Shown here piece by piece: positions 1,493-37,107 of a DNA stretch of 64,000 bases. The notes beneath the pieces were generated by a model. That model was given only the letters and a program-made list of their open reading frames with translations, ran no database searches and had not been told where the DNA came from. Origin of the DNA: an uncultured Acidobacteriota bacterium (lineage in GTDB: Bacteria > Acidobacteriota > JAQAZP01); contig CAWIIB010000009.1 in the NCBI GenBank assembly GCA_963836075.1, forward strand, positions 3,072,001 through 3,136,000, in the 5' to 3' direction. The position numbers and the translations under genes are program-made. Every line of letters begins with the position of its first letter. The first letter of the stretch is position 1.

Positions 1493-3124
1493 TCAGTGCA
1501 GGGTCCCGGCGGTGTCGCTCCACTGGTTGCCGATGCGGTCCACCACCTCCTGCAGTGCGTCCGGCAGATTTTCAGCTCGCGCCTTCATTGTATCAGCGCT
1601 GTTTTCTTCTATCCAATCCGCGGCCGCGGTCATCAGCTGGAACTGGGAACGGGTGGAGGCCCGGCGCACCAGGTCCTCGTCGCCCGGTTTACGCCCCCGC
1701 ACCAGTGTGGCCAGCGCGCCGGCCATCCGGCCGGTGAGCGGGACCAGGACCTCCATCCGCGGGTCCTCGAAGCGGAAATCCCAGCCGAACCCGGCGGTGG
1801 ACCGGCGCACCAGGCCGTCGGCCATGGCCTTGCGGAAGATGGGGGTGAACTCATTGTAGAGGGTCAGCCGGGAGCCCACCGAGATGGCGGTGCGCAGGAA
1901 CGGGGCCTCCTGCTCGATAATCTCCAGGTTCTCCCGCAGCTCTTCCAGGCGGCACCAGGGGTGCAGCAGGATCAGCCCGTGGCCGCGGTAGCCTTCCACC
2001 GCCTGCGGGCCGAATCTCTGATGCAGGCCGCGCAGGATGCGGCAGGCCTCGATGTTCTCCTCCACCGTGGCCCCCTTGTTGAAGATGTCCAGGTGGCGCT
2101 GGACAAAGCTCTCGAACCCCAGCTGCATGATCTGCATCCTGCCCCCGGTGGCCGAGAGGCGGGTGATGCACCGCTCCAGAAGTTCCCGGTGACGAACCAG
2201 CAGCGCCGGTGTGGAGCGGATATAGAGCCGGGCCGGAGCGACCCCCTGGTCAATTGCCTTGTTCACCAGCGGCTCGAGAAAGCGGAAGGGGTTTTCGCTC
2301 TGGATGTAGACGTCACTGGTCTTCCACTGTTCTCTCAGGTGAAGCGCCTGTTCCAGCACCAGGTCCACCGTTTCGTCCACCGGCAGGAGGCGGGTCTCCT
2401 GGTTGCGGAAGACGCAGAAACTGCAGCCCCGGGACCCCGTCTCGATCTGTCGGGTCAACGCCTGCCGGGCCCGGGGAAGCAAGCTGGGATCGTTCAGCAC
2501 CGGGTGCGGGGGCAGGTTCCGGAACAGTTCGTTCTGTGCCGCGGGGCGGGCATAGTGGCACCCGAACTCGGGTACCACCGCGGGGAGCTTCAGCGAGACA
2601 CCACGGCTCCTGCCGGGGCCGACATAGGTCCAACGGAACTCCGGGCGATAGGGCAGGATCTCGGCACGCACATCCCACACACCGTCAATTCCGCTGTGGT
2701 CCACCTTGCCCCCGGGCACTCTGTGGAACAGACCGGGGACCTGGTCCAGCGTCCCCTTGCCGCACAGGGCACTGACCAGGGCCAGGATCGCCCGTCTCCC
2801 CGGCCCCACCACGGCGTATTCCGCCGGGCTGTGCAGAAAGAGGGTCAGGGCATTCACACCGCCCAGCAGCATCGGCGTCTTCCCCAGCTCACCCTTGATC
2901 CGCCGCACCGCCTGCAGCGGGAAGATCGACTCCAGGGCCACCAGGTCGAGTTGTTTTTCCCGGGCAATGGACGGGATACGCTCCGCCTCGGCGATATTGA
3001 CGAGGTAGGGGTGGCACTCCACCCCGGCATCGCGCAAGTCGTTGACAAATAGGCACATGCCGAGGTGAGGCGGTGTGTCCGGGTAGAGAAGTTCGCAGGC
3101 GAAAAGCCCGATTTTGAGCGGCAT
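1493..3124 (-). CDS. Radical SAM protein with B12-binding-like N-terminal domain and split Cys motif (C-x44-C-x2-C)
   Basis: N-terminus has LLGG...YAVVGPG...VPGL as in cobalamin-dependent radical SAMs. EFGCHY...RGCSFC motif and LGFESF...LDIFNKG barrel segment. Start taken at ATG 3124. Confidence 0.7.
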   Translation of the reverse strand: MPLKIGLFACELLYPDTPPHLGMCLFVNDLRDAGVECHPYLVNIAEAERIPSIAREKQLDLVALESIFPLQAVRRIKGELGKTPMLLGGVNALTLFLHSPAEYAVVGPGRRAILALVSALCGKGTLDQVPGLFHRVPGGKVDHSGIDGVWDVRAEILPYRPEFRWTYVGPGRSRGVSLKLPAVVPEFGCHYARPAAQNELFRNLPPHPVLNDPSLLPRARQALTRQIETGSRGCSFCVFRNQETRLLPVDETVDLVLEQALHLREQWKTSDVYIQSENPFRFLEPLVNKAIDQGVAPARLYIRSTPALLVRHRELLERCITRLSATGGRMQIMQLGFESFVQRHLDIFNKGATVEENIEACRILRGLHQRFGPQAVEGYRGHGLILLHPWCRLEELRENLEIIEQEAPFLRTAISVGSRLTLYNEFTPIFRKAMADGLVRRSTAGFGWDFRFEDPRMEVLVPLTGRMAGALATLVRGRKPGDEDLVRRASTRSQFQLMTAAADWIEENSADTMKARAENLPDALQEVVDRIGNQWSDTAGTLH

Positions 3125-3340
3125 CTGGATCTCCGCTGAGCAGCACTGAAATCGGACCGGGGGACCGGCCGCGGGCGGTGCAGAGTATAGCACATCGTAA
3201 CCGGGGGAGAGCGGAGGTCATGCTGGGGAGCAATGATCGCCAAATTCCGGATCAATTTGTTGGGCATCGAAAAGATAAGTTTTTGTCTTAAAACATGTTC
3301 GACAGCCTCTCGCGCAATCGCAGAAATAAAGTAATTGTTG

Positions 3341-3612: not shown

Positions 3613-4527
3613 ATGAAGGAACGGATCTGTTTGCTGAGCCGGATGGCCCCGATACTGGGAGTCATTCTGGCGGCGGCCGTACTTGCTTTCGGGCCATTGG
3701 CCGTGGAGTGTCCCGCGGAGGGCTTCGGGGCCTCGACCGCGCCCACCGTGGCGTTGAGCACCCAGGCGCCGGTGGCGCCGCTGCCCAACGCGCCCGACTG
3801 GGTATATTACGTCGACGGCTTCGCCCCGGGACAGGATGTCTGGGTTGCCGTGCCGTCGGTGGCCAACGGGCACGATCTCTCCGGGTCGACGGCCCGGGTC
3901 TACATCATGCCCCACCGCGCACCGGAGTCATGGACCAACGGGTCCCGGCTGCTCGACATCAGCGGCGGGTATGAGATGATCACCATCCAGCCGGGGAAGC
4001 CGTTCGACAACTACCTGATGATCTGGTCCGGCCCTTCGCGCGTGGGGACCTACGACATCATCCTCGACCTCGAGCCCTACGGCACCTTTCAGCGTGACAC
4101 CGACCTGGTGGACCACGGCGGCAAGACCGGCATCCCCGGTTTCGCCATTCTCGGCGCGGGCAGTGTCGACTACCTGATGATCACTCCTGACACGGGGTTC
4201 ATGGGCAAAGTCTGCACGCGGATCTTCGGCGTGGGCCCCTATCCCGGCGCCCTGCCCGAAGGCGTCGAGTTTTTCGTGGCCACCGGCTGGAACAACGGTG
4301 CCAACGGCACACCCGAGAGCGGCGGCGGCGACGACGTGAACCTGGGGCCGGTGAGTGCCGAATGGTCGACCACCTTGGCCCAGGAGGTGGGCCGGATCAA
4401 CGAACTCAACGGCGTCTACTCCACCGGCGAGATTACCGGCGACGGCGACGTGATGGCCACCTATCCCGGTGCCACCGGAGACAGCGTGCCCATTAACACC
4501 ACCGCTCCCACGTGGGTCAGGGACTGA
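3613..4527 (+). CDS. Secreted QhpA-like protein (resembles QHNDH alpha-subunit C-terminal domain) with no heme-binding motif
   Basis: Signal-peptide-like N-terminus. C-terminal VDYLMITP...FVATGWNNGANG...DDVNLGPVSAEW...GVYSTG...PTW resembles QhpA domain IV. First gene before qhpD-qhpC. No CxxCH. Confidence 0.6.
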   Translation: MKERICLLSRMAPILGVILAAAVLAFGPLAVECPAEGFGASTAPTVALSTQAPVAPLPNAPDWVYYVDGFAPGQDVWVAVPSVANGHDLSGSTARVYIMPHRAPESWTNGSRLLDISGGYEMITIQPGKPFDNYLMIWSGPSRVGTYDIILDLEPYGTFQRDTDLVDHGGKTGIPGFAILGAGSVDYLMITPDTGFMGKVCTRIFGVGPYPGALPEGVEFFVATGWNNGANGTPESGGGDDVNLGPVSAEWSTTLAQEVGRINELNGVYSTGEITGDGDVMATYPGATGDSVPINTTAPTWVRD

Positions 4528-4567
4528 GCGGAGCGATCCGCCGCGGCGCAGGAGAGAAGGGACCGCA

Positions 4568-6025
4568 ATGACCGAACCGGGTGGCAGCGAAAAGGAACTG
4601 GCTTTGCGGGAGGTTCACGTCTTCCGCGAGCGGGAGCGCGATTTTCTGCTCTCGGTGCCCAACTGCGCCTTCTGGAACGTGGGTGACACGGCCGCGGCCA
4701 TGGTCCGCCAGATTTCCCGGGAAAAGAAGAAGTCGAACAGCTGGACGCGCACGGCGCTTCAGGACCGGTTCGGCGACGAGTACGGCCGGGAAGAGGTTGG
4801 CGAGATCGTGGACGAGCTGGCCGGTGTCGGTCTGCTCTACGAGAAGGCCGACGGCTCCACAGCTCCCGAGGCGGCTCCGGACCGCTTTCCCCGCTCGCCG
4901 CTGCAGATCGGTTCGCTGGTCTGCCACGTGGCCCACGACTGCAACCTCAACTGCTCCTACTGCTACGGTGGCGGCGGTTCCTACGGCGGCAAAACCGAGT
5001 TGATGACCGAGGAGATGGGGCTGCGCTACGTCGAGATGCTCTTTGCCAACTCCGGCCAGCTGGACAGCGTCCACATGACCTTTTTCGGCGGCGAGCCGCT
5101 GATGAACATGCCCGTGGTTCGAGCGGCAGTGGCCCGCGGCGAGGAGCTGGCCAAGGAGACCGGCAAGAAGATCACCTTCAGCCTGACCACCAACGGCACC
5201 CTGGTTACCCCGGAAATTGCCGGCTACCTGGACGAGCACCGTATCGGCGTCTCGCTCAGTCTCGACGGTCCGCCGGAGATCAACGACGCGGTGCGCGTGT
5301 TCAAGGACAGCGACGAGAGCACCTACGAAGCGGTTCGCAAGGTGATGTCCATGTTCCAGAAGGGCCGGCCGCTGGGCACCCGGGTCACCCTGACCCGCAA
5401 GTCGCTCGATGTGACCGGCATCGTGGACCACCTGCTGAAGATGGGCTTTTTCGAGGTCGGTGTCACCCCGGTGAACTGCGGTGACCCGGAGCTGGACTTC
5501 GACAAGGACGATCTCGAACGGTTCCACGAGGAGTGCTGTGCCATCGGTGATCTCTATCTCGAGCGGGCGAAGGCCGGAGGCTACTACGGTTTCTCCAACC
5601 TCTCCAACGTGCTGCGGCAGCTGCACACCGGCGAGGACAAGGCCTATCCCTGCGGAGCCGGTATCCAGCTTTACGCCGGCGACCCCTCGGGAGAACTCTT
5701 CATGTGCCACCGGCTGGTGGGTAACGAGAAGTACCGCGTGGGCGACGTGGATCAGGGTATCGATCACGACCGGCAGGCCGAGTTCCTGCGCCAGGTCAAC
5801 CTGGAAAACAAGGAGGGCTGCAGCGGTTGCTGGGCCCGTTACATCTGCAGCGGCGGCTGCTACTACATCTCGGAACTGCACTACGGGGACCCGTCCCGCA
5901 CTCACCACCTCTACTGCAGGTTTCTGCGCAAGTGGTACCAGGACGGCATCGGTCTCTACGCCGAGATCATGGAGAGCTGCCCGGAGTTTATCGCCAAGGT
6001 TCTCGAACCCCGCATCGTCTGCTGA
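4568..6025 (+). CDS. qhpD: Radical SAM/SPASM thioether-crosslinking maturase (QhpD/PeaB family)
   Basis: CNLNCSYC, FFGGEPL, SPASM cysteines YPCGAG...CHR...CSGCWARYICSGGCY...YC, N-terminal RRE-like region. Directly upstream of qhpC. Confidence 0.88.
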   Translation: MTEPGGSEKELALREVHVFRERERDFLLSVPNCAFWNVGDTAAAMVRQISREKKKSNSWTRTALQDRFGDEYGREEVGEIVDELAGVGLLYEKADGSTAPEAAPDRFPRSPLQIGSLVCHVAHDCNLNCSYCYGGGGSYGGKTELMTEEMGLRYVEMLFANSGQLDSVHMTFFGGEPLMNMPVVRAAVARGEELAKETGKKITFSLTTNGTLVTPEIAGYLDEHRIGVSLSLDGPPEINDAVRVFKDSDESTYEAVRKVMSMFQKGRPLGTRVTLTRKSLDVTGIVDHLLKMGFFEVGVTPVNCGDPELDFDKDDLERFHEECCAIGDLYLERAKAGGYYGFSNLSNVLRQLHTGEDKAYPCGAGIQLYAGDPSGELFMCHRLVGNEKYRVGDVDQGIDHDRQAEFLRQVNLENKEGCSGCWARYICSGGCYYISELHYGDPSRTHHLYCRFLRKWYQDGIGLYAEIMESCPEFIAKVLEPRIVC

Positions 6026-6115
6026 AAAAAATGCGCGGCGCCGGGTCTCGACAGATCAGATGTTCAGCTGCTCACGGTGGGAGAGCCGGGAGCGGCACTG
6101 GACGGGAGGACCAAG

Positions 6116-6409
6116 ATGAAGCACCTCAGACCAATGAATCGCAGAGCCAGGCAGGCTTCAGGCCTGGACGGACCGGATGTCTACGGGTATGCCTGCACCG
6201 ACTGCTGCACCGCCTGGGCACCGGGGTGGGAGACCGGCCAGTCGGGCAGCGTGGACCCCTGTCCCTGGGCCAGTGACCTCTACCTCTGCTGGGTGACCTG
6301 TTACTGGACAGGCCAGGTGGCGGACGACTACTGGGAGCCCAACTGGCTCGACGCCTGCGGACAGCTTGCCGAAGACTGGTACCGCATCTGCGTCGTGCCC
6401 GACAACTAG
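6116..6409 (+). CDS. qhpC: Quinohemoprotein amine dehydrogenase gamma-subunit-like precursor (CTQ-bearing peptide)
   Basis: Leader MKHLRPMNRRA. Core C-x8-E (CCTAWAPGWE), DLYLC-x3-CYW-x2-QVAD...PNW...DW matches the QhpC pattern PGWE...DLYGC...CWW..QVAD...PNW...DW. RBS GGGAGG. Confidence 0.88.
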   Translation: MKHLRPMNRRARQASGLDGPDVYGYACTDCCTAWAPGWETGQSGSVDPCPWASDLYLCWVTCYWTGQVADDYWEPNWLDACGQLAEDWYRICVVPDN

Positions 6410-6482
6410 GGATCAGCTGCTGTTTGGGTGGTTGCGCCGGCACGGCCGGTGCGGAGTGCGACCCCACTTTCGGGAGGACATC

Positions 6483-7535
6483 ATGCTTACGAAAATATGG
6501 AATAGATCCCTGGCCGGTGCGGGTATCCTGGCTTTGCTTTTCGCCTGTGTTCTGCTGGCCGGGCCCGCGGCCCACGCCGGCAGCAATTATGTGCTCACTG
6601 CTTCCAACGACCTGCTGGTGGTGGACGCCGACCAGCAGCGGCTGGCGGGTGAAGTGCCCCTGGGCCGTTTTGTCAAGGACATCGCGGTGGCCCCCGGCGG
6701 CCGTTTTGCCTACGTGGCCCACAGCGGCGGCGTGGACGTTGTGGACCTGGGCAGCCTGCAGGTTGTGGCCCACCCGGTGACCATGCCCGCCCGTTTTCTC
6801 CGCCTCTCCGCTGACGGCACGCGGCTCTATGCGCTGACCTATGGCAGCAAGAAGATGCGCGCTTCCGGCGAGGTCCCCGAGGGCTACTTCCTCCAGGTGG
6901 TGGACCTGACCGGCAAGCAGCCGCAGGTGATCCAGCGCATGGACCTGGGCGCTGGCGCCTTCGATTTCATTGTTTCACCGGGCAGCGGCACCATCCACGT
7001 GCTCAACCTTTCAGCCCGGACCCTGGCCCAGCGGGCGCTGACCGACGGGACGCTGATGAAATCGGTCACCATGCCGGGAAGCACTCCGGACACCGCCCGC
7101 GCCGGTGAACAGGGCGTGCTCTTCCGGCTCACCACCTCGGCGGACGGCAGCAAGATCTACATTCCCGAGATGCGCGAAGAATGCGGTCTGTGGGAGGTCG
7201 ACGCGGCCAGCGGCGCCACCCGCTGGGTGTCCCTGGGCTTTGAGGCCTATCCCCGGGCGATGGTTGTATCGCCTGACGGCGCGTATCTTCACGTCTCTTC
7301 GGTGAAGGGGATCTTCTCCGTGGATATGAAGACCCTCACCGTGAGCCGCTATGCCGAGTGCAAGGAGGTCCACCAGGGCATCGGCGTCAGCAGCGACGGG
7401 ACCCAGCTCTACTGCACCGTCCCGGATCTGGAGGGCAGTGGCGCACTGGACATCTTCGACTCGACCACCCTGGAGCGGGTGGCCCGCGTTATGATTCCCG
7501 GGCACTCGCCCTTCGTGGTGGCGTCGGCCAGGTAA
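6483..7535 (+). CDS. Secreted beta-propeller, QhpB-like beta subunit 1
   Basis: Signal peptide ending AHA. YVTN-like blades (APGGRFAYV, SADGTRLY, SPDGAYL, SSDGTQLY). Follows qhpC. Confidence 0.72.
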   Translation: MLTKIWNRSLAGAGILALLFACVLLAGPAAHAGSNYVLTASNDLLVVDADQQRLAGEVPLGRFVKDIAVAPGGRFAYVAHSGGVDVVDLGSLQVVAHPVTMPARFLRLSADGTRLYALTYGSKKMRASGEVPEGYFLQVVDLTGKQPQVIQRMDLGAGAFDFIVSPGSGTIHVLNLSARTLAQRALTDGTLMKSVTMPGSTPDTARAGEQGVLFRLTTSADGSKIYIPEMREECGLWEVDAASGATRWVSLGFEAYPRAMVVSPDGAYLHVSSVKGIFSVDMKTLTVSRYAECKEVHQGIGVSSDGTQLYCTVPDLEGSGALDIFDSTTLERVARVMIPGHSPFVVASAR

Positions 7536-7613
7536 GAGCCGGCTGCATTCTCCCGGCCCGCCCGTTCCCCGGCCCGGCCGCGGAGCGGGCGGTGATGCTG
7601 CGTGGAGATGACG

Positions 7614-8738
7614 ATGAACGTCATAACCGGCATGCCCGGCCGCTGTACAGCAGTCCTCTGCCTGCTGTTCATGCTCCTTGCCCCGACGGGTACCATCCGG
7701 GCCGGTGATCAGACTTCCACGGCCGCCCCCGCGGCCCGGACCGGGGAAGGTCCGCCCACGCGGGTCATCGTCGGCGGCTGGTACGATCTGTTCGTTGTTG
7801 ACGTCGATGCGGGCCGCGTGGATGCGGTGGTCAACATCGACGAGACGGCCAACGACGTCGCCGTCACCGCCGACGGCCGGCTGGCGCTGGCGGCCACCGA
7901 TGCCGGACTGGTCCGGGCCGACCTGGCCACCGGCAAACGGTCGGGGCTGGACGACTGGGGCATGCTCTGCTCGGTGGAGTTGTCGGACGATGACAGCATC
8001 CTGGCGGCGCTGACCTGTCCCGGCCACACGCCATTCCGCAAGTCGAAGCACACCATCCGCCTCGAGGACCTGCCCGGGAAACGGACTCTCGGCACCCTGG
8101 AGTTCAGCACCAACGCCCACGACATCTTCCTCTCTCCCGACGGCAGCCTGCTGTTCGCCTCGAACAAGATCGGGCGCAACATCGGCTGGGCGTCTACGGA
8201 AGATCCAGCCCGGGCCGCACTCCAGGTGCTGCGGCTGGGCGACGAGGGCGACGACCTCCGCCGGATGACCCGGGTGGCCACCCTGGTGCCGCTGGAGGGC
8301 CCCGGCGGCCGCCGGCAGCTGGTTGGTGTGGAGACCCCGGGGGACGACACGCCGATGATCCTCTGGCTGGCAACCTTCCCCCGGCACGGGGCTGCGGGAG
8401 AACCGCGGGTGGAACGGCTGAGCACTTCCCGCAGCGGCAGCGCCCAGGGGGCGGCGGTGAGCCCCGGCGGGTCGACACTGTTCGTCAACTGCCGCCGCCA
8501 CCTGATGGTCTACGATCTTGCCGGCCGCAAGGAAACGGCATGGGTGGAATTGCCCGAGGAGCACCGTTGGCTCACCCTGGATCATGAAGGCCGGCGGGTT
8601 TTCCTTACCTGCACTCCGGAAGAGGGAGAAGGGTACCTGACCGAGGTGTCGTTGCACGGGTCAGAGTGGAAGGTCTCCCGGCGGATCGCCATGCCCGACT
8701 CGGTGAACGTGATCACCACCATGCCGGCGGTTCGGTGA
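7614..8738 (+). CDS. Second secreted beta-propeller (QhpB-like paralog)
   Basis: Signal peptide. Blades TADGRLAL, SPDGSLLFA, SPGGSTLFV. N-terminal DLFVVD parallels DLLVVD of the previous gene. Confidence 0.62.
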   Translation: MNVITGMPGRCTAVLCLLFMLLAPTGTIRAGDQTSTAAPAARTGEGPPTRVIVGGWYDLFVVDVDAGRVDAVVNIDETANDVAVTADGRLALAATDAGLVRADLATGKRSGLDDWGMLCSVELSDDDSILAALTCPGHTPFRKSKHTIRLEDLPGKRTLGTLEFSTNAHDIFLSPDGSLLFASNKIGRNIGWASTEDPARAALQVLRLGDEGDDLRRMTRVATLVPLEGPGGRRQLVGVETPGDDTPMILWLATFPRHGAAGEPRVERLSTSRSGSAQGAAVSPGGSTLFVNCRRHLMVYDLAGRKETAWVELPEEHRWLTLDHEGRRVFLTCTPEEGEGYLTEVSLHGSEWKVSRRIAMPDSVNVITTMPAVR

Positions 8739-8742
8739 CCCG

Positions 8743-9684
8743 ATGGAGTGGGTGCTGTTCATCGCTCCATCCGCCCTGGAGGGCGCCCTCGGCGGGCTGG
8801 AGGCCGGTGGTTTCCCCGGTGAAACGGTCTGGCGGGTGACGCCGGCGGCCGGGACACCGGAGCAGTGGTTCGGCGATGCGGCAGCGGGCCACGGCGGTGA
8901 CCGGATAGAGAGGATCTACTGGGGCAGCGAGTTTTGTGAAACGCTGATCCCCGGCGTTCGATCCACCGCCCGGCTGGCCGAAGGGGTTCGCGGGCAGGGG
9001 ATGGACTGGACGCTGGTCACGCCCTATGTCACTGACCGCGGCCTGGATCGCATCGGCCGGCTGTTGGAAGAGTTGCCCCCGGAGCTCCACCCTGACGAGG
9101 TGGTGGTCAACGACTGGGGAGTGCTGCGCCGGCTGCGCCGGGAGCATGAGCAGATCCGGCCGGTGCTGGGCCGGCTGATGAACAAGATGATTCGCGACCC
9201 GCGGGTGGCGACGCAGTTCGACGATCCGCGGGCCCCGAAGGAGGCGGTGGACGCCCTGCGGGGGTTCAGCATCTCCGCCGGCAGCTACCGGTCGTTTCTG
9301 GCTGACAACAACGTGGGGCGGGTGGAAGTGGACAACCCGCTCCAGGGGCTGGCCGTGGATTTTTCCGCCCAGGGCATGCCGGCGAGCATCTACCTGCCCT
9401 TCGGCTATGTGACCACCGGGCGGATCTGCCTCCCCGGTTCCCTCGGCCTGCCGCCGGGGGAGAAGTTTTCGCACCTCGGCCGCTGCGGCCGGGAGTGCGG
9501 CGGGACTGTTCTGGAATTGAAGAACACCAGGTCCCCTTTCGAATCGGACCGGGACCTGACGCTCTACCAGCGCGGGAACACCATCTTCTATTTCCAGCCG
9601 CCCCGGAAGGTGGCGGCGGGGCTGGAAGCGGCCGCAGATTGCGGGGTGGACCGGATTGTCTGGCAGCCTGAACTGCCGTTTTAG
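8743..9684 (+). CDS. U32-family Fe-S protein, UbiV-like
   Basis: RIYWGSEFC, VVVNDWG, LGRLMNK, TTGRIC...CGREC...GNT; cysteine layout like UbiV. Confidence 0.72.
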   Translation: MEWVLFIAPSALEGALGGLEAGGFPGETVWRVTPAAGTPEQWFGDAAAGHGGDRIERIYWGSEFCETLIPGVRSTARLAEGVRGQGMDWTLVTPYVTDRGLDRIGRLLEELPPELHPDEVVVNDWGVLRRLRREHEQIRPVLGRLMNKMIRDPRVATQFDDPRAPKEAVDALRGFSISAGSYRSFLADNNVGRVEVDNPLQGLAVDFSAQGMPASIYLPFGYVTTGRICLPGSLGLPPGEKFSHLGRCGRECGGTVLELKNTRSPFESDRDLTLYQRGNTIFYFQPPRKVAAGLEAAADCGVDRIVWQPELPF

Positions 9685-9687
9685 GAA

Positions 9688-10776
9688 GTGAAGGATCGTG
9701 GAGTGAAGATCACCGCCCCATTGTCCAGGTTGGACGAAGTGGAGATGCTGGTCGGTTCCGGCGCCGACGAGCTCTACTGCGGGTTGGTGCCCGAGCGCTG
9801 GATGAAGCGCTTCACCCGCGCGTTGTGGCTCAACCGGCGTGACCCGCGGTCGGCCAACTTCACCAGCGAGGATGAGCTGGCCCGGGCGGTGGAACTGGCC
9901 CACGGTATGGGGGCCAGGGTCTTCCTGACCCTCAACGCGCCGTTCTTCACCGCGGACCAGCAGGAGCTGGTGTTGGAGCTGGCCCAGTGGGCGGCGCGGG
10001 AAGCGGGGCTGGACGCCCTGATCGTCGCCGACCTCGGACTGCTGGCGGCCCTGGCCGGGCAACTGCCGGAAGGCACCGGGCTGCACACCAGCACCGTGGG
10101 CAATGCCAGCAACCGCGAGGCCGTGGAGCACTGGGCCGATCTCGGCGTGGAGCGGGTGATCCTCCCCCGCCACCTGAGCATCGAGGAGATCGGCGAGCTG
10201 GTGCGGACGGTGGGTCACCGGGTGGAACTTGAGGCGTTCGTGCTCAACGACACCTGCGTCTACGAGGAGGGTTTCTGCCACACCATGCACGGTGTCGACC
10301 GCCTGGGGGCCTTCTGTGTCACACCCTGGGAATACGAGATTCACCCGGCGGGTGGGGTGGAGCTCTCCGCCGATGACCGGCAGGCCTGGACACGGCACCT
10401 CGAGGACCACGCCACCTGGCTCTGGTACTGCAACAGTTGCGGCTGCACCATGACGGAGAAGGGGCTGCCCCTGGGACCGTGCGGCCTCTGCGCCATCAAG
10501 GCTCTGGACGAAGCCGGTGTGACCTCGGTGAAGATTGTCGGCCGCGAGGCGTCGGGGATGCGCAAGCTGCGCAGCGTCCAGCTGGTCAAACGGGTCCTGG
10601 AGCGGGTGGAGGCCGGCGCATCCGAGGCGGATGCGGCGGAGTGGGCCCGGGAGATCCGGGACGCCGCGGAACACTGCCGGGCGCGCTACATGTGCTACTA
10701 CCGGGAGTGCGCACCCACCGGGGGGACAGTGGCGGTGGGGCCGCCGGCCGGCAGCGGCCCGGGGGAGGGGCGATGA
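9688..10776 (+). CDS. U32-family Fe-S protein, UbiU/TrhP/RlhA-like
   Basis: GADELYCG, ANF, DALIVADLG, HTST, RVILPRHLS, C-x6-C-x12-C, CGLC, VKIVGR. Confidence 0.85.
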   Translation: MKDRGVKITAPLSRLDEVEMLVGSGADELYCGLVPERWMKRFTRALWLNRRDPRSANFTSEDELARAVELAHGMGARVFLTLNAPFFTADQQELVLELAQWAAREAGLDALIVADLGLLAALAGQLPEGTGLHTSTVGNASNREAVEHWADLGVERVILPRHLSIEEIGELVRTVGHRVELEAFVLNDTCVYEEGFCHTMHGVDRLGAFCVTPWEYEIHPAGGVELSADDRQAWTRHLEDHATWLWYCNSCGCTMTEKGLPLGPCGLCAIKALDEAGVTSVKIVGREASGMRKLRSVQLVKRVLERVEAGASEADAAEWAREIRDAAEHCRARYMCYYRECAPTGGTVAVGPPAGSGPGEGR

Positions 10777-12596
10777 GTCAGGAAAAGGCAGCAGCGAGAG
10801 ACGCGGCGGAACCCGGTCAGACACGGGTCAGCCGGATCTTCTCCTTTATCCGCCCCTACCGGGGCCGGATCGGCCTGCTGATTGTGATCATGGTCCTCTC
10901 CGCCGGCCTGGCCAACATCTACCCCTTCTTCGTCAAGTACCTGGTGGACGAGGTCTTTATCCAGCAGAACCTCCACTGGCTGCAATACATCGTCGGCGGG
11001 CTGGCCGTGATGGCGCTGTTCCAGTTCGGTGTCACCTTTCTCAACGGCTATCTCTACACCTGGCTCACCGCGCGGATCCTCCTCGACATGAGGCTCCACC
11101 TCTACGACCACATCCACCGTCTCTCGATGAAGTTTTTCAAGGAGACCAAGGTGGGGGACATCATCTCGCGGCTGAACAGCGACATGGCCCAGGTGCAGTC
11201 CATCGCCATGGAATCGCTGATGACCTTTCTCGGCACGGTGATGACCATCACCGTGGTCTCGGTGATCATGATCTTCTTCAACTGGAGGCTGTTCCTGATC
11301 AGCTGCATCGCGGTTCCCGGGATCATCCTGCTGCTCCGCTGGTTCCAGCCCCGGCTGCACCGCCTGGCCCGGAAGATCCGCGACCAGAACGCCGAGATCA
11401 CCAGCTTCGTCCTCGAGGCCTTCCGCGGTTCGAAAACGGTGAAGGTCACCGGTTCACGGCACAACGAGACACGCCGCTTTCTCCGCGAGAACAAGGGCTT
11501 GATCAACAAGGTGATCCGATTCCAGATCATGTCCGGGTTCTCCTCCGGGCTCAGCGCGCTGATGATCACCGCCAGTTCGGCGGCGGTGCTCTGGTTTGGC
11601 GGGCGGATGATGATTGCCGGGCAGATGAGCGCCGGCGATTTGATGGCCTTCGAACTGTTCCAGATCCGGCTCTTTGGCCCGGTGCGCTCGCTGGTCTCCC
11701 TGTTCCTCAAGCTGCAGAAGGCGCGGGCTTCCGTCGACCGGGTCTTCGAATTTCTCGACATTGCCCCCGATGACGGTGACCGTCCGGGGGCGCTACGGCT
11801 GCCCGAGGTGCGGGGCGAGGTGGCTTTCGAGGGAGTGAGTTTTGCTTACGAGCCGGGAAAGCCGGTGCTCAGCGAGGTCAGCTTCCGCGTGTCCCCCGGG
11901 TCCAGCCTGGCCATCGTCGGGCCCAGCGGCGTGGGCAAGACCACCGTCGCCGACCTGCTGTTCCGGCTCTACCGCCCGGACAGCGGGCGGGTCACCGTGG
12001 ACGGGCACGACCTGGCGGGAGTGAAACTGCGCACCCTGCTGCGCAGCATGGCCCTGGTGCCCCAGGACTCCTTCCTGTTCAACGGCACGGTGACCGAAAA
12101 CATCCGCTACGGCGCACCGGTCTGCGGAGAGGATGAGGTGCGCCGGGCCGCCGAACTTGCCAACATCAACGAGTTGATCGAGAAGCTGCCCCGAGGATAC
12201 GACACGGTGGTGGGTGAACGGGGGCTGCGGTTTTCCGGCGGCCAGGCCCAGCGCATAGCCCTGGCCCGGGCGTTCCTGCGCCGTCCGCGAATCCTGGTGC
12301 TCGACGAGGCCACCGCCGCGCTGGACTGGTTTTCGGACCAGCAGGTTCACCTGGCCCTGAAGGAGTTGATGCGCGGCCGGACCACCATCCTCATCACGCA
12401 CAAGATGTTCATGGTCCAGGAGATGGACAATATCCTGGTGCTCGACGGGAACCGGGTGGTCCAGGAGGGGCGCCACGACCGGTTGATGGGTGAGCAGGGG
12501 CTCTACCGCGAGCTCTACCGCCAGGTGCAGGGTGATGAAACGGAGCACCAGGTGGTGCTCTCCCCGGCCGGACCGCCTGACCGGGTGAAGCGGTGA
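10773..12596 (+). CDS. ABC exporter, fused TMD-NBD (QhpF-like)
   Basis: Multi-TM N-terminal domain, Walker A GPSGVGKT, signature FSGGQAQR, Walker B ILVLDEAT. ATGA overlap with the upstream U32 gene. Confidence 0.9.
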   Translation: MSQEKAAARDAAEPGQTRVSRIFSFIRPYRGRIGLLIVIMVLSAGLANIYPFFVKYLVDEVFIQQNLHWLQYIVGGLAVMALFQFGVTFLNGYLYTWLTARILLDMRLHLYDHIHRLSMKFFKETKVGDIISRLNSDMAQVQSIAMESLMTFLGTVMTITVVSVIMIFFNWRLFLISCIAVPGIILLLRWFQPRLHRLARKIRDQNAEITSFVLEAFRGSKTVKVTGSRHNETRRFLRENKGLINKVIRFQIMSGFSSGLSALMITASSAAVLWFGGRMMIAGQMSAGDLMAFELFQIRLFGPVRSLVSLFLKLQKARASVDRVFEFLDIAPDDGDRPGALRLPEVRGEVAFEGVSFAYEPGKPVLSEVSFRVSPGSSLAIVGPSGVGKTTVADLLFRLYRPDSGRVTVDGHDLAGVKLRTLLRSMALVPQDSFLFNGTVTENIRYGAPVCGEDEVRRAAELANINELIEKLPRGYDTVVGERGLRFSGGQAQRIALARAFLRRPRILVLDEATAALDWFSDQQVHLALKELMRGRTTILITHKMFMVQEMDNILVLDGNRVVQEGRHDRLMGEQGLYRELYRQVQGDETEHQVVLSPAGPPDRVKR

Positions 12597-13411
12597 TCGC
12601 CGGGGCGGCTCCCGCCCGGGCCCGGTTCACCGGCCGCGGGGTGGCGGTGGGCCTGGTGGATTCGGGGGTCAACGGGAGCCACCCCCACGTGGGAGGTCGT
12701 CTGGAGCGGTCGGTGACCGTGCTGGAGGGCCAGGGCGGGCGTCCGCTGGTGGCCGACGACCTGAAAGGGGACGCGGCGGGGCACGGCACGGCCTGCGCCG
12801 GTGTCATCATCCAGGGGGCGCCGGATGTCCGGCTCTACTCGCTGCGGGTCCTCGACCGGCAGCTGCAGACCACGCACCGCCGGGTGGCCGAGGCGATCCG
12901 CTGGTGCACCAGAGAGGGAATGGACGTGATCAACCTCAGCCTGGGCACCACCCGGGCCGAGGCGCTGGAGATACTGGAGACGGCGTGCCGCGAGGCGGTG
13001 GAGGCCGGCTGCATCCTGGTGGCCGCCGCCGGGCCGGAGCGCGAACGCAGCTACCCCGCCGGTTTCAGCGGGCTGGTGCTGGGGGTGGACGAGGATCCGC
13101 AATGCGGGGAGTGGCAGTGCCGCGTGCGGCCCGGGGCGAAAATCCCCGTGGTGGCCTGCGGACGGCCCCGGGACGTGGAGCGGGCCGACCTGCTGCGGAA
13201 TTTCCGCGGGTCGAGTTTTGCCGCCGCCCGGGTCAGCGCCATGGCGGCGCGGCTGCGCGAGGAGCGTCCGGGCCTCGACACCGGCGGGCTGCTGGAGGCG
13301 CTGGCCCGGGAGGAGATATCCACGACGACCACCAGGGTCGTCTCCTCGCAAGGACAGGCGAGGGGAGGGAAAGGTCAGGGAGATGATTCGCCGCCGGCCA
13401 TGAACCGGTGA
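12593..13411 (+). CDS. Subtilisin-like S8 protease without signal peptide (QhpE-like leader peptidase)
   Basis: Catalytic triad motifs VGLVDSG, GHGTACAG, GSSFAA, plus INLSLG. GTGA overlap with the ABC gene. Confidence 0.85.
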   Translation: MIAGAAPARARFTGRGVAVGLVDSGVNGSHPHVGGRLERSVTVLEGQGGRPLVADDLKGDAAGHGTACAGVIIQGAPDVRLYSLRVLDRQLQTTHRRVAEAIRWCTREGMDVINLSLGTTRAEALEILETACREAVEAGCILVAAAGPERERSYPAGFSGLVLGVDEDPQCGEWQCRVRPGAKIPVVACGRPRDVERADLLRNFRGSSFAAARVSAMAARLREERPGLDTGGLLEALAREEISTTTTRVVSSQGQARGGKGQGDDSPPAMNR

Positions 13412-13509
13412 CGGTTGATTCCATACCGACTGATGGATTGTTTTTATGGTTCAAGACGGATCTGGTATTTGATGCTTGGATGTGTAACAGAGGGGAAAGG
13501 AGGCCTGAC

Positions 13510-15649
13510 ATGAGGCGAATGGAAACCGTGGGCGGTCTGGCGATCTTGCTGGCCGCGATGATCACCTGTTTGCCCCTGGCGGCGGACGAGATCGAGTTCG
13601 GGGAGCGCACACTGGATGCCAGCCTGGACGGACCCCGTCATGCACAGGTGGTGGACCTGGATGGCGACGGGGACAACGACGTGGTGGCCTGCGGCTACGA
13701 GGACGGGGACATCTTCTGGTATGAGAACAACGGTCTGGGTTCGTTCAGCCGCCAGGTGGTGGTGCAGGACAACCTCTATGGTGTGAACCACTTGACGGTG
13801 GCCGACCTGGACGGCGACGGTGACATGGACGTGGTCGCCGTCTCCTTCAGCCTGGACGTGCTGGCCTGGTGGGAGAACGACGGCAACGAGAACTTCTCGC
13901 GGGCCAACATCGCCACCGGGTTCGTCGATGCCAGTTGTTGCTTCGTCATCGATCTCGACGACGACGGCGACATGGACATTCTCGCCTCCGCTTTCTACCA
14001 GGACAAGATCTCCTGGTTCGAGAACAACGGCAGCGAGAGTTTCACCATGAACAACACGTTTACCTCCGGGCTGGACGGGGCCCAGTGGGTCTGGGCCGGT
14101 GACGTGGACGACGACGGCGACCAGGACGTGGCCGGCCTCTCCTTCCACGACGGCAACGTGATCTGGTGGGAGAACAACGGCAGCGAGAGCTTCTCCTCGC
14201 ACCAGATTTCCGGCAACCACGAGGGCGCGACGTCCATCGTGGGATTGGACCTGGACGACGATGGCGACATGGACTTCGTCACCACCGCCATGGACGACAA
14301 CCGGCTCACCTGGTGGGAGAACAACGGTTCGGAGAGCTTCACCCAGAACAATATCGACAACAGCCTGACCGGTGCGCTGCACGCCACGGTGGCTGACCTG
14401 GACAACGACGGCGACAAGGACATCACCGCCACCGCCTTCAACGGCTCGCAGATGTACCTGGTACGACAACAACGGCTCCGAGACCTTCACCCGCCGGGTG
14501 GTCACCGATACCGCCAGCCGCCCCTTCGGCACGGCTGCCGGCGACCTCGACGGTGACATGGATATGGACCTGGTGCTCTGTGACTTCGAAGGCGACACCG
14601 TGCTCTGGTTCGAGAGCGGCGGCGGCAGCGGCGGCACTTTCTACCTCGTTGCCGGCCCGGGACCCGGACCGGCCAACGACCCGCGGGTCAAGGGTTTCTT
14701 TGCCAACGGCAACGAGAACGGCATCACCGACTTCCTGGCTTACGGCGCCACGGGCTACGGCGTGAACGTGACCTGCGGTGACTTGGACGGGGACGGCAAC
14801 CACGAGATTGTCACCGGCGCCGGACCCGGCGCGGTATACGGGCCGCACGTCAGGGCCTTCGAGTGGGACGGCACGCCGGTAAGCGGCCTCAACTTCATCT
14901 CCTACGGCACGCTGAAATACGGCGTGAACGTGGCTTGTGGCGACATCGACGGTGACGGCAACGACGAAATCATCACCGGCGCCGGTCCGGGAGCGGTCTT
15001 CGGCCCGCACGTCAGGGGCTGGAACGTCGATGGCGGCACCGCCACCGCGATCTCCGCCATCAGTTATTTTGCCTACGGCACATTGAAGTGGGGCGTCAAC
15101 GTGGCCTGCGGCGACATCGACGGTGACGGCATGGCCGAGATCATCACCGGCGCCGGTCCGGGCGAGATCTTCGGTCCCCAGGTGCGCGGCTGGAATTACG
15201 ACGGCTCCACGATTTCGGCGATGAGCCAGGTCAATTTCTTCGCTTACAACACTCAGCGCTGGGGGGTCAACGTGGGCGCCGGCGACATCGACGGCGACGG
15301 CTACGACGAAATCGTCACCGGCGCCGGGCCCGGCGACCAGGCCGGCCCGCATGTCAGGGCGTTCAATTGCGATGGCGGGAGCACCACGGCGATCTCGGCG
15401 GTCAACTTCATGGCTTACGGTGATCATGGCTGGAAGTATGGCGCCAGGGTGTCCTGTGTCGACTTTGACGGGGATGGCTACGGTGAGATTCTCACCGGTC
15501 CGGGCCCCGGTCCCATGACCCAGGCCCTGGTCCGCGGCTGGAACTATGACGGCATGGTGCTGGAGCAGATCACCGGCACGGACTTCTTCGCCTTTGACGA
15601 AGCGTCGTATTTCTACGGGGTGAATGTATTCGGCGGGGTTCCCCAATAA
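13510..15649 (+). CDS. Secreted FG-GAP/VCBS repeat protein with C-terminal GAGPG-repeat module; frameshift near 14460
   Basis: DLDGDGD/WWENNG repeats continue across ORFs 13408..14556 and 14372..15649. Confidence 0.8.
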
Positions 15650-15718
15650 CCGGGGAACCGGACGGCTAAAACCTTCCGGCGGCGCCCCACCGGGTGCCGC
15701 CGGATTCGAATGTCAGCC

Positions 15719-24961: not shown

Positions 24962-26269
24962 ATGGGGATGGAGGCGATTTTGAGAAGACAGAATTATCGA
25001 CTTCTTTCAGTGGCCCTGATCGCATTGTCGCTGGCGCTCTGCTGGCCGGCAGCCGGTGCCGTGCCGGCCGATCTTGATTCGCCTCGGGAAGCAGGCCGGG
25101 TGTCGGCGGGGGAAGGGGAGGTCTACCGCGTACAGGTGGCCGCCTACTTCTCCTCCCGGCGGGCCAGGAAGGCGAAAAAAAGCATCGAGGGCGACGAGCA
25201 GTTCAAGGGCCAGAAGATCGCCATTCAGTTCAGCGCGAAAACCGGCGTCTACCGGGTGGAGGTGGGCGAGTTCAACACCCGGGACGCCGCCGAGGAACTG
25301 AAGAGGCAATTTGTGAAATCAGGGTTTGAGGACGCTGAAGTCATGGTGGACCGCCTCTATCCAGTCTCGTCGAACAGCGCCCCCGACCCGTCGCCCGGAC
25401 CGGCCGCCGTGGCGGTCCCGGAGAAGGCAGCGGCTCCGACGAAATGGAGCGCCGGTGACCTGGACGGAAAATCGGTCATCGGCCATGCGTCCAGCTCCGC
25501 CCAGCGCAGCGACTACATTATCGGCCCCGAGGATCTGCTGGAGATCTCGGTTTTTGAACTGGAAGGTTTGAACAAGACCGTGCGGGTCTCGGAAGAGGGG
25601 ATGATCAACCTGCCGCTGCTCGGCGAGGTCCGGGCCGAGGGGCAGACCCGCCGCGGGCTGGAGGAGGTCGTCCGCAATCTCCTCGAAGTGAAATATATCA
25701 ACAACCCCCAGGTCTCCGTATTCATCAGGGAATTCAGAAGCCGCAGTGTGTCGGTGATCGGCTCGGTGCGCCGGCCGGGAACCTACAAGCTTCTCGGCAC
25801 CAGGACCTTGATCCACATGATCTCCGAGTCGGGCGGCTTGACCGACAACGCCGGTCCGGTGCTCTACGTCATCCGGGTGAGCCCCGAAGGGGAGTCGCAG
25901 CGGATCACGGTGGACCTTGATCAACTGATGGTTCAGGGGCAGCCGGAACTGAATCTGCTGGTGCAGTCGGGTGACGTGATCAACATTCCCGCGGATCCGC
26001 AGATGTCGGTCTATATCTATGGGGCTGTCCGCACGCCGGGGGAGTTGTCCTTCGCCAAATCGGAAGCGATCTCGCTGCTGCAGGCGATCACCAAGGCGGG
26101 CGGGCTCACCGACCGGGCCGCGGCGGACAAGGTCCGCATCAAGCGCGTGAACGATCGCGGTGTCGAGGAGCAGATCGACGTCAACCTCAAAAAGATCCTC
26201 AAGGGCAAGCAGGAAGACTCGCTGCTCCAGGACAAGGACGTTGTGGTGGTGCCGGAGACTATTTTCTAG
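24962..26269 (+). CDS. wza: Polysaccharide export protein (Wza/OPX, Poly_export + SLBB) with N-terminal SPOR domain
   Basis: YRVQVAA...YRVEVGEF..R..AE (SPOR); DYIIGPEDLLEISVF...G.INLPLLG; SLBB repeats. Confidence 0.85.
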   Translation: MGMEAILRRQNYRLLSVALIALSLALCWPAAGAVPADLDSPREAGRVSAGEGEVYRVQVAAYFSSRRARKAKKSIEGDEQFKGQKIAIQFSAKTGVYRVEVGEFNTRDAAEELKRQFVKSGFEDAEVMVDRLYPVSSNSAPDPSPGPAAVAVPEKAAAPTKWSAGDLDGKSVIGHASSSAQRSDYIIGPEDLLEISVFELEGLNKTVRVSEEGMINLPLLGEVRAEGQTRRGLEEVVRNLLEVKYINNPQVSVFIREFRSRSVSVIGSVRRPGTYKLLGTRTLIHMISESGGLTDNAGPVLYVIRVSPEGESQRITVDLDQLMVQGQPELNLLVQSGDVINIPADPQMSVYIYGAVRTPGELSFAKSEAISLLQAITKAGGLTDRAAADKVRIKRVNDRGVEEQIDVNLKKILKGKQEDSLLQDKDVVVVPETIF

Positions 26270-26291
26270 GGCCGCCGCACGGGGGAGAGGA

Positions 26292-36939: not shown

Positions 36940-37107
36940 TACTGCCTCTTGGGATGGCGGAGGGTCCACTCTTTCCTCAACCTTAGCAAGAGTTTCCCGG
37001 CAATTCAAGAGGTGCCGCATCCCTGAATAATCATTTTTCATGGACAATAGAACATGATGTAATATCAGGCTGCTGTCTGTCCTTCTGAAATGCTCGGAGG
37101 TGACGCA

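What the first reader, a model, noticed from the sequence alone, without database searches (positions are those of the whole stretch)
3613..13411. Variant qhp operon in which a UbiV/UbiU-like U32 pair takes the place of the monooxygenase QhpG: candidate O2-independent tryptophylquinone (CTQ) biogenesis
Seen: a co-oriented, partly overlapping run of qhpA-like, qhpD, qhpC, two beta-propellers, U32a, U32b, ABC exporter and subtilisin genes, with no flavoprotein gene in the window. The U32 genes are tightly coupled to their neighbours (3-4 nt gaps, ATGA overlap). Established: in QHNDH biogenesis QhpD makes Cys-Asp/Glu thioethers, the FAD monooxygenase QhpG hydroxylates the CTQ Trp, QhpE removes the leader and QhpF exports the peptide. 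U32 proteins (UbiU/UbiV, TrhP, RlhA) are Fe-S enzymes for O2-independent hydroxylation linked to prephenate. Inference: the U32 heterodimer oxygenates Trp64 of QhpC without O2, giving an anaerobic route to a protein-derived quinone cofactor. I do not know of a characterised example.
Basis: partly seen in the sequence, partly recalled or inferred. Interest (0 to 1): 0.92.

Follow-up and report, generated by a model that had tools for sequence, protein, structure and literature searches.

The report
U32 iron-sulfur pair replaces QhpG maturase
A gene cluster for a quinone-cofactor amine-dehydrogenase-like enzyme lacks the usual oxygen-dependent flavoenzyme and carries instead a pair of U32-type iron-sulfur proteins, a swap seen in several bacterial phyla that points to a route to a protein-derived quinone cofactor without molecular oxygen.

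Summary
The gene run at 3613-13411 is real. It holds a haem-less alpha-like gene, QhpD-like radical SAM, QhpC-like gamma subunit with all cofactor and thioether residues, two propellers, two coupled genes, an ABC exporter and a QhpE-like protease. The second coupled gene is a clear UbiU-like U32 protein. The first has no Pfam or NCBIfam hit, but it carries a UbiV-style four-cysteine motif, a weak profile match to U32 and a TIM-barrel model, and it is predicted to bind the second.

No QhpG was found in the genome. The same insertion between qhpB and qhpF occurs in 17 of 80 fetched loci. These include complete di-haem QHNDH operons in Bacilli and Acidobacteriota, and none has QhpG nearby. In a 301-genome phylum sample, 17 of 21 QhpD genomes had QhpG on the same contig, 1 had the pair, and no locus had both.

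The best reading is that the pair hydroxylates the cofactor tryptophan in place of QhpG. The chemistry is inferred, not shown. Hosts are not strict anaerobes, the pair also occurs in unrelated contexts, and some loci have neither enzyme. I found no paper linking U32 to tryptophylquinone.

The parts
3613..4527 (+). Alpha-like subunit with a signal-peptide-like N-terminus. It keeps only the Ig-like domain IV of QhpA and has no haem c motif.
   Evidence: PF09100 27.2 bits, TIGR03908 17.9 bits against cut-off 274. No CXXCH.
4565..6025 (+). QhpD-like radical SAM/SPASM thioether maturase. The ORF is open from 4469.
   Evidence: TIGR03906 390.6 bits, cut-off 453. Next best family is PapB at 278.7 bits. 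34% identical to Paracoccus QhpD.
6116..6409 (+). QhpC-like gamma subunit precursor, 97 aa. It carries the cofactor pair Cys58/Trp64 and the thioether Cys and acidic residues.
   Evidence: NF037958 41.4 bits, cut-off 50. C30, E39, D54, C58, C62, W64 and D70 are invariant in 18 sequences.
6483..7535 (+). Beta-propeller 1, a QhpB-like candidate beta subunit.
   Evidence: TIGR03907 28.9 bits, cut-off 223, and hydrazine synthase beta 37 bits.
7602..8738 (+). Beta-propeller 2, a paralog of propeller 1 with no family hit.
   Evidence: 24% identical to propeller 1, E 2e-8. No Pfam or NCBIfam hit.
8743..9684 (+). 'U32a': a member of an unannotated family with four invariant Cys (65, 229, 248, 252). 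It is the UbiV-like partner of U32b.
   Evidence: No Pfam or NCBIfam hit. The family has 2150 representatives at E<=1e-3. Invariant Cys. hhalign to U32b: 78%, E 1.7e-5. Model pLDDT 90, best fold match 5d88 at Z 12.1, tied with other barrels. Predicted complex 0.93 against 0.00.
9688..10776 (+). U32b: a UbiU-like U32 iron-sulfur protein. Its likely true start is 9703.
   Evidence: PF01136 119 bits. UbiU model 103 bits, cut-off 440. hhalign to E. coli UbiU: 99.5%, E 4.5e-23. Invariant C190, C197, C210, C265, C268, C330, C336.
10773..12596 (+). QhpF-like ABC exporter with fused permease and ATPase.
   Evidence: PF00664 174 bits and PF00005 109 bits. 25% identical to Paracoccus QhpF, E 3e-41.
12593..13411 (+). 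QhpE-like subtilisin, the leader protease.
   Evidence: NF049966 154.6 bits, cut-off 165. PF00082 87 bits.
13408..14556 (+). FG-GAP repeat protein, translationally coupled to the protease gene. A related gene follows each upstream structural module.
   Evidence: PF13517 141 bits. Related genes in L084.
14372..15649 (+). Second FG-GAP repeat protein. The start is uncertain.
   Evidence: PF13517 78 bits, PF01839 69 bits.

Best explanation
The cluster encodes a QHNDH-like periplasmic dehydrogenase together with its maturation machinery.

Proposed steps:
1. QhpD installs Cys-to-Asp/Glu thioethers in the QhpC-like gamma peptide.
2. A heterodimer of U32a and U32b, each holding a four-cysteine Fe-S site, hydroxylates Trp64 of QhpC. 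The flavoprotein QhpG does this step in canonical systems.
3. The QhpE-like protease removes the leader, and the QhpF-like ABC exporter moves the peptide out to join the propeller and alpha-like subunits.

By analogy with UbiU-UbiV, TrhP and RlhA, the hydroxylation would not need O2 and may take its oxygen from prephenate.

Shown here: gene content, conservation of the substrate residues, absence of QhpG, recurrence of the swap, U32b homology to UbiU, and a predicted heterodimer.
Inferred: the substrate (Trp64), the reaction, O2 independence and the oxygen donor.
For: (1) All other qhp roles are present, and the QhpC residues for the cofactor and the thioethers are invariant.

(2) QhpG was not found in the genome, which is 94.7% complete. 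tblastn gave only a 29-aa Rossmann match. A 3-sequence profile gave 13 matches, all under 25 bits. The best candidate scores 67 bits on NF049967 (cut-off 240) and 137 bits as a geranylgeranyl reductase.

(3) 17 of the 80 fetched loci that encode U32a relatives carry qhp genes. Ten of them have full-length di-haem-type QhpA and eight have QhpB, and none of the 80 has a QhpG match. Five such genomes gave no QhpG match beyond about 21 bits.

(4) Gene orders differ only by the swap: G-A-D-C-B-F-E against A-D-C-B-U32a-U32b-F-E. The Bacilli operon also has a two-component regulator and an aldehyde dehydrogenase.

(5) In the phylum sample of 301 genomes, 21 have QhpD above cut-off. Of these, 17 have a full-length QhpG on the same contig, 1 has the pair adjacent, and 3 have neither. 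The 3 same-genus variant genomes have the pair. No locus has both.

(6) In the Bacillota sample of 401 genomes, the two genuine qhp loci (G001, G579) both have U32a adjacent and no QhpG.

(7) On the QhpD tree of 40 rows, the QhpG label needs at least 3 changes and the U32 label at least 4. This suggests repeated displacement.

(8) U32b matches UbiU at 99.5%. The Cys spacings parallel UbiU (CX6CX16CX38C) and UbiV (CXnCX12CX3C), taken from passages of PMC6747719.

(9) The complex model scores ipSAE 0.93 with best control 0.00. That mark was reached by 58 of 80 solved complexes and 2 of 110 mismatched pairs. Runs agree in at least 93% of contacts and partner pLDDT is at least 89. My own alignments were used, so those calibration counts hold only roughly.

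(10) 57 of 80 loci have U32b within 350 nt of U32a on the same strand. One 705-aa protein fuses both domains.
Against: There is no biochemical evidence for any U32 enzyme acting on a protein. Even for UbiU-UbiV, direct hydroxylase activity has not been shown in vitro (passages of PMC10990095).

U32a is not recognised by Pfam or NCBIfam. Its profile does not match E. coli UbiV as a single sequence (probability 0.35%). Its best fold match, U32 at Z 12.1, is tied with other TIM barrels at 12.0 and 11.7.

The pair is not specific to qhp. 63 of the 80 loci have other contexts (FAD_binding_4/CCG/ETF, RND efflux, lone pairs), and this genome has a second pair 270 kb away.

G161 has both a QhpG-type qhp locus and an unlinked pair.

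Three QhpD genomes show neither enzyme near qhp. One is a complete 8.8-Mb genome with no U32a at E<=1e-5 and no QhpG-family match above 91 bits. A third solution, or an unlinked enzyme, must therefore exist.

Hosts are not strict anaerobes: COX1 scores 487 bits in this genome, and the other hosts are Bacilli.

An unlinked flavoprotein such as the geranylgeranyl-reductase-like gene on contig C1 cannot be excluded as the hydroxylase.
Confidence: 0.65

Rival explanations
1. The U32 pair belongs to gamma-subunit maturation but does a step other than Trp hydroxylation. Candidates are oxidation of dihydroxy-Trp to the quinone, formation of the Cys-Trp bond, or electron transfer for QhpD. An unlinked oxygenase would then hydroxylate the Trp.
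For: Steps after QhpG's dihydroxylation (quinone formation and the Cys37-Trp43 link) have no assigned enzyme in the passages read of PMC7876137. A generic class-A flavoprotein exists elsewhere in this genome. Three qhp loci have neither enzyme nearby, so unlinked solutions exist.
Against: If the pair did an extra step, canonical loci should need it too. Yet 16 of the 17 QhpG-type genomes in the sample have no U32a anywhere, and the one exception, G161, has it on another contig. The locus types differ by exactly G against the pair. All characterised U32 functions concern ring hydroxylation.
Confidence: 0.17
2. The window's own cluster does not make a tryptophylquinone at all. It would make a thioether-crosslinked protein of another function, and the pair would modify something else in it. 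The inference from di-haem QHNDH operons would then not transfer to this haem-less variant.
For: Every qhp model scores below its curated cut-off here. The alpha-like subunit has no haem. QhpC has four extra Cys. There is an extra propeller, there are FG-GAP genes, and two further structural modules lie upstream.
Against: C58, C62, W64 and D70 and the flanking QV-D motif are invariant with canonical QhpC. The gene order around the pair is the same as in true QHNDH operons.
Confidence: 0.1
3. The pair is a housekeeping hydroxylase for RNA or an isoprenoid quinone, or a U32 'collagenase'-type peptidase, and lies in the operon by chance or for leader removal.
For: Most U32a loci are not qhp-linked (63 of 80). 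U32 was first described as a peptidase family. This genome has a second pair.
Against: The insertion sits at the same place between qhpB and qhpF, with translational coupling, in Acidobacteriota, Gemmatimonadota and Bacilli. The qhp-linked U32a rows cluster on the tree: 3 changes, with 0 of 500 shuffles as low. A dedicated leader protease, QhpE, is already present.
Confidence: 0.05

Closest known systems
Canonical qhp operon of Paracoccus and Pseudomonas (qhpABCDEFGR), with the FAD monooxygenase QhpG (PDB 7CTQ)
   Same: The homologous parts are the radical SAM QhpD, the gamma precursor with the same Cys, Trp and acidic residues, the subtilisin QhpE and the ABC exporter QhpF. Gene order A-D-C-B...F-E is also shared.
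   Different: There is no QhpG, and a U32a/U32b pair lies between B and F. In this window the alpha subunit also lacks the di-haem domain. There is a second propeller and FG-GAP genes, and two more structural modules lie upstream.
UbiU-UbiV of E. coli, the heterodimeric Fe-S U32 proteins needed for O2-independent ubiquinone hydroxylation
   Same: Both are two adjacent genes. One partner is clearly U32 (99.5% to UbiU). The other is shorter, with one distant Cys plus a C-X(n)-C-X3-C group. A heterodimer is predicted.
   Different: U32b scores 103 bits against the UbiU cut-off of 440. U32a is not detectably UbiV. There is no UbiT. The context is a protein-cofactor operon, so the presumed substrate is a peptidyl tryptophan rather than a prenylated phenol. 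U32b has three further invariant Cys.
LodB and GoxB, flavoprotein maturases of tryptophylquinone in LodA-like oxidases, and MauG for TTQ
   Same: All are dedicated enzymes that oxygenate a protein tryptophan to build a quinone cofactor. QhpG itself shows weak LodB and GoxB family matches, and these enzymes are named as maturases in a passage of PMC11951088.
   Different: Those enzymes use FAD with O2, or haem with H2O2 or O2. The pair here is of a family with no flavin or haem.

Membership tests
QHNDH / qhp system | QhpD equivalog (TIGR03906) above the curated cut-off | tested here: not met
   390.6 bits against a cut-off of 453. It is still by far the best-matching family. U32-type loci elsewhere do pass, for example G225 at 598 bits and G001 at 464 bits.
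QHNDH / qhp system | Gamma subunit with the cofactor Cys and Trp and three Cys-Asp/Glu thioether pairs | tested here: met
   C30, E39, D54, C58, C62, W64 and D70 are invariant across 18 sequences including 3 canonical ones. The model score of 41.4 is below the cut-off of 50. Residue roles for Cys37, Trp43 and Cys41-Asp49 come from passages of PMC7876137. The other pairings are recalled.
QHNDH / qhp system | Di-haem cytochrome c alpha subunit (QhpA) | tested here: not met
   No CXXCH motif. Only domain IV matches. QhpA in L026, L083 and L109 has two CXXCH motifs.
QHNDH / qhp system | QhpB beta-propeller subunit | tested here: inconclusive
   TIGR03907 28.9 bits against a cut-off of 223. The position in the operon matches.
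QHNDH / qhp system | QhpE protease and QhpF exporter | tested here: inconclusive
   NF049966 154.6 bits against a cut-off of 165. ABC half-transporter adjacent.
QHNDH / qhp system | QhpG flavoprotein (NF049967) | tested here: not met
   Not found in the window or the genome. The search at E<=1e-20 gave no match for G000.
Peptidase_U32 (PF01136) Fe-S hydroxylase-associated family | U32 domain above the gathering score | tested here: met
   U32b scores 119 bits against 22.4. U32a has no hit. Its hhalign match to U32b is 78%, E 1.7e-5 over 115 columns, so U32a alone is inconclusive.
Peptidase_U32 (PF01136) Fe-S hydroxylase-associated family | Conserved four-cysteine motif for a 4Fe-4S cluster | tested here: met
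   U32b: C190-X6-C197-X12-C210...C265. U32a: C65...C229-X18-C248-X3-C252. All are invariant in 20 and 34 sequences respectively. Cluster binding itself was not tested.
UbiU/UbiV | Equivalog score and heterodimer | tested here: not met
   NF047963 103 bits against a cut-off of 440. A1 against UbiV gives probability 0.35%. The heterodimer is only predicted: 0.93 against 0.00.
UbiU/UbiV | O2-independent, prephenate-dependent hydroxylation | not testable with these tools
   Requires labelling and anaerobic reconstitution.

The most novel reading that the evidence does not exclude
The U32a/U32b heterodimer is the first U32 hydroxylase that acts on a protein. It would dihydroxylate a peptidyl tryptophan without O2, with prephenate as the oxygen donor, giving a flavin-free and O2-free route to cysteine tryptophylquinone. 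The same unannotated U32a family, with about 2150 representative clusters in bacteria and archaea, would supply O2-independent aromatic hydroxylation in other pathways of anoxic microbes. These might include the unexplained hydroxy-tryptophans of methyl-coenzyme M reductases.
Probability: 0.4. Interest if true: 0.9.

Novelty: new variant of a known kind. Interest (0 to 1): 0.8.

Why it matters
All known tryptophylquinone maturases use O2 or peroxide: QhpG, LodB, GoxB and MauG. The canonical qhp pathway even pairs an O2-labile radical SAM enzyme with an O2-requiring flavoenzyme.

A U32 pair taking QhpG's place would do three things:
- Extend U32 chemistry from lipids and RNA to proteins.
- Give U32 enzymology a defined peptide substrate that is soluble and traceable by mass spectrometry. 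Assays of UbiU-UbiV lack such a substrate.
- Explain how amine-oxidising quinoproteins could be made in sediments or under denitrifying conditions.

It also defines a large partner family (U32a) that has no Pfam or NCBIfam model. The hypothesis can be tested in culturable Bacilli that carry the complete operon.

Tried and rejected
- BLASTP of U32a against U32b found nothing.
- A U32a profile against PDB sequences gave only a spurious short-chain dehydrogenase match.
- Foldseek ranked the U32 structure 5d88 only 48th, among generic TIM barrels.
- hhalign of the U32a profile against the single E. coli UbiV sequence was negative. I did not build a UbiV family profile.
- The ESM Atlas gave only unnamed clusters. 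One was auto-named Peptidase U32, and the nearest cluster with a Pfam family (PF01136) scored 0.79, which is a lead only.
- No RNA holder was listed for the stretch, so nothing can be said on expression.
- Laid contigs show near-identical DNA in one freshwater-sediment run (12 of 13 contigs at 99% or more). That run may be the source sample. Relatives at 90-99% identity occur in one salt-marsh and two marine-sediment runs, covering 29-30 of 30 bins. This hints at a sediment habitat and nothing more.
- A Streptomyces plasmid hit to QhpD (H15) is a different radical SAM system.
- G592's QhpD-like gene is a lone radical SAM gene, not a qhp locus.
- The idea that U32-type loci mark strict anaerobes was rejected (and the host names).
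- L031 is labelled Heliobacteriaceae but is nearly identical to Blastocatellia loci. It is probably mis-binned, so I did not count it as an anaerobe.


Full report
**Observation.** The window is G000:C9:3072001-3136000 of a 6.2-Mb genome that is 94.7% complete. Its nearest loci are Acidobacteriota MAGs.
- The alpha-like gene keeps only QhpA domain IV and has no CXXCH motif.
- The radical SAM gene is closest to QhpD but below the equivalog cut-off, at 390.6 against 453 bits.
- The 97-aa QhpC-like gene scores 41.4 against 50.
- Two propellers follow. One shows a weak QhpB match. The other shows none but is a paralog of the first.
- Then come two tightly coupled genes, an ABC exporter and a QhpE-like subtilisin at 154.6 against 165 bits.
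- The junctions are as stated.

**The two coupled genes.** U32b (9688-10776) is a clear U32 protein.
- PF01136 scores 119 bits.
- Its family profile aligns to E. coli UbiU at 99.5%, E 4.5e-23, over 263 columns.
- C190, C197 and C210 fall on UbiU C169, C176 and C193.

U32a (8743-9684) has no Pfam or NCBIfam match even at E 10. It belongs to a large unannotated family.
- 368 proteins matched at E<=1e-3 among the 8000 candidates scored, and none of the 120 listed has a Pfam domain.
- 2150 of 1.84 billion representatives match at E<=1e-3, 1655 at 1e-10 and 713 at 1e-30.
- Four Cys (65, 229, 248, 252) are invariant in 34 sequences.
- The spacing CXnCX18CX3C mirrors UbiV's CXnCX12CX3C, taken from passages of PMC6747719.
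- Its profile matches the N-terminal barrel of the U32b profile at 78%, E 1.7e-5, over 115 columns.
- Its model (pLDDT 90.4) is a TIM-type barrel. The top VIA-align hit is the U32 protein Mk0906: Z 12.1, rmsd 3.8, 198 residues aligned. This is tied with other barrels at Z 12.0 and 11.7.
- It does not match the single UbiV sequence.

I therefore accept 'UbiV-like partner' as a resemblance in how it works. I do not accept it as demonstrated family membership.

**The two proteins go together.**
- U32b lies within 350 nt on the same strand in 57 of the 80 loci fetched with the U32a profile. It is present in 59 of 80.
- One 705-aa protein fuses a U32a part (residues 36-293) to a PF01136 domain (417-646).
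- The complex model scores 0.93 against a best control of 0.00. That mark was reached by 58 of 80 solved complexes and 2 of 110 mismatched pairs. Runs agree in at least 93% of contacts and partner pLDDT is at least 89. My own alignments were used, so the calibration holds only roughly.
- The predicted interface includes the Cys-rich segments of both chains.

**The substrate is conserved.** I aligned 18 QhpC sequences: three paralogs of this genome, 12 from other loci and three canonical ones. C30, E39, D54, C58, C62, W64 and D70 are invariant. C58 and W64 correspond to Cys37 and Trp43 of the cofactor. C62 and D70 correspond to the Cys41-Asp49 ring in which QhpG dihydroxylates Trp43 (passages of PMC7876137).

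**QhpG is missing.**
- I took QhpG from a Paracoccus pantotrophus plasmid locus and confirmed it against 7CTQ (E 2e-43) and NF049967 (403 bits).
- tblastn against the genome gave only a 29-residue Rossmann match.
- A three-sequence profile gave 13 matches, all under 25 bits and none in the window.
- The best candidate, on contig C1, scores 67 bits on the QhpG model (cut-off 240) and 137 bits as a geranylgeranyl reductase.

**The swap recurs.**
- Seventeen of the 80 loci carry qhp genes next to the pair.
- Ten of them have a full-length QhpA and eight have QhpB. None of the 80 has a QhpG match at E<=1e-3.
- Five such genomes (Calidifontibacillus, a Planococcaceae strain, Sporosarcina, Bryobacterales F-183 and a Bryobacter MAG) gave nothing beyond Rossmann matches.
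- The Bacilli operon reads: kinase, regulator, qhpC, A, D, B, U32a, U32b, F, E, aldehyde dehydrogenase.

**Phylum survey.** In an even sample of 301 genomes of the window's phylum, 21 have QhpD above cut-off, and 3 same-genus genomes have the 390-bit variant.
- Of the 21, 17 have a full-length QhpG-family gene (187-257 bits) on the same contig, usually within 5 kb.
- One, G225, has the pair adjacent and no such QhpG.
- Three have neither.
- The three variant genomes all have the pair.
- No locus has both.
- Gene orders are G-A-D-C-B-F-E against A-D-C-B-U32a-U32b-F-E.

**Bacillota survey.** In 401 Bacillota genomes, three had a QhpD-like gene at E<=1e-90. Two are qhp loci with U32a adjacent and no QhpG. 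The third is a lone radical SAM gene.

**QhpD tree.** On a tree of 40 rows the two locus types interleave. QhpG needs at least 3 changes and U32 at least 4. This was a quick search, and two long rows are flagged.

**Results against the reading.**
- The pair is not qhp-specific. 63 of 80 loci have other contexts:
  - FAD_binding_4, CCG and ETF genes in Bathyarchaeia, Chloroflexota and others.
  - U32a without an adjacent U32b beside RND efflux genes in Thermodesulfobacteriota.
  - Lone pairs in Desulfosporosinus-type Bacillota.
- This genome has a second pair at C9:2802921-2804941.
- G161 has a QhpG-type qhp locus and an unlinked pair.
- G283 is a complete 8.8-Mb genome with an A-D-C-B-F-E locus. 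It has no U32a, only a generic 84-bit U32 match, and no QhpG-family match above 91 bits. Its QhpD nests among U32-type rows.
- F-183 keeps U32a at the locus, but its U32b lies about 4 Mb away.
- The hosts are not strict anaerobes. COX1 scores 487 bits here.

**The window's own variant.** Besides the missing haem, two further modules lie 3-18 kb upstream of the window. Each holds an alpha-like gene, a QhpC-like gene (71-73% identical to the window's), a propeller and an FG-GAP gene. Neither has maturation genes. One maturation set therefore probably serves three structural sets.

**Literature.**
- No paper in the library holds 'quinohemoprotein amine dehydrogenase' with 'U32', or 'tryptophylquinone' with 'U32'. 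A wider term search found none either.
- I read passages, not whole texts, of PMC7876137, PMC10990095, PMC6747719 and PMC11951088.
- PMC11951088 names only QhpG, LodB and GoxB as tryptophylquinone maturases. It also mentions 6- and 7-hydroxy-tryptophan in methyl-CoM reductases of anaerobes.

**Verdict.** Its chemistry is untested, and the anaerobe claim is not supported.

Noticed in passing
L084 (G000:C9:3054001-3072000), about 8975-13690 and 14081-17998: Two tandem extra modules lie just upstream of the window. Each has a haem-less alpha-like gene (295 aa), a QhpC-like gene (97-98 aa, 71-73% identical to the window's), a propeller (352 aa) and an FG-GAP protein. Neither has maturation genes.
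   Followed up: partly
G000:C9:2802921-2804941 (L112, L002), about 270 kb upstream of the window: A second U32a/U32b pair in the same genome (232 and 245 bits). It is flanked by an AMP-binding/acyltransferase gene and a sulfatase gene, not by qhp genes.
   Followed up: partly
L014, L019, L024, L034, L039, L041, L042, L046, L050, L055, L059, L068, L072, L078: In Bathyarchaeia, Hadarchaeota, Chloroflexota and some Proteobacteria the pair, in the order U32b-U32a, sits beside FAD_binding_4 and CCG-domain genes, often with ETF alpha and beta. This is a lactate/glycolate-dehydrogenase-like electron module. The substrate is unknown.
   Followed up: partly
L108 (G283:C1:7414001-7434000): A complete Acidobacteriota genome has a qhp locus A-D-C-B-F-E with neither QhpG nor the U32 pair anywhere detectable. 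A 154-aa ORF of no known family follows the protease gene.
   Followed up: partly
P0240 (705 aa): A single protein carries a U32a-family part (residues 36-293) fused to a Peptidase_U32 domain (417-646).
   Followed up: partly
L075 and G004:C1:6113906-6114901: Bryobacterales F-183 keeps U32a next to qhpA-D-C, but its U32b gene lies about 4 Mb away. No ABC exporter or protease gene follows at the locus.
   Followed up: partly
window 1493-3193 (-): A 566-aa ORF, divergent from the cluster, has a weak Radical_SAM match (27.3 bits, below the cut-off of 29.5).
   Followed up: no
window 29526-31943, 37090-40083, 53331-55799: Several large FG-GAP repeat proteins are 52-57% identical to the cluster's second FG-GAP gene. 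Polysaccharide export genes lie at 24962-28554.
   Followed up: no
L031: A contig labelled Heliobacteriaceae carries qhp and U32a genes nearly identical to Blastocatellia loci L053 and L029. It is probably a binning error.
   Followed up: no
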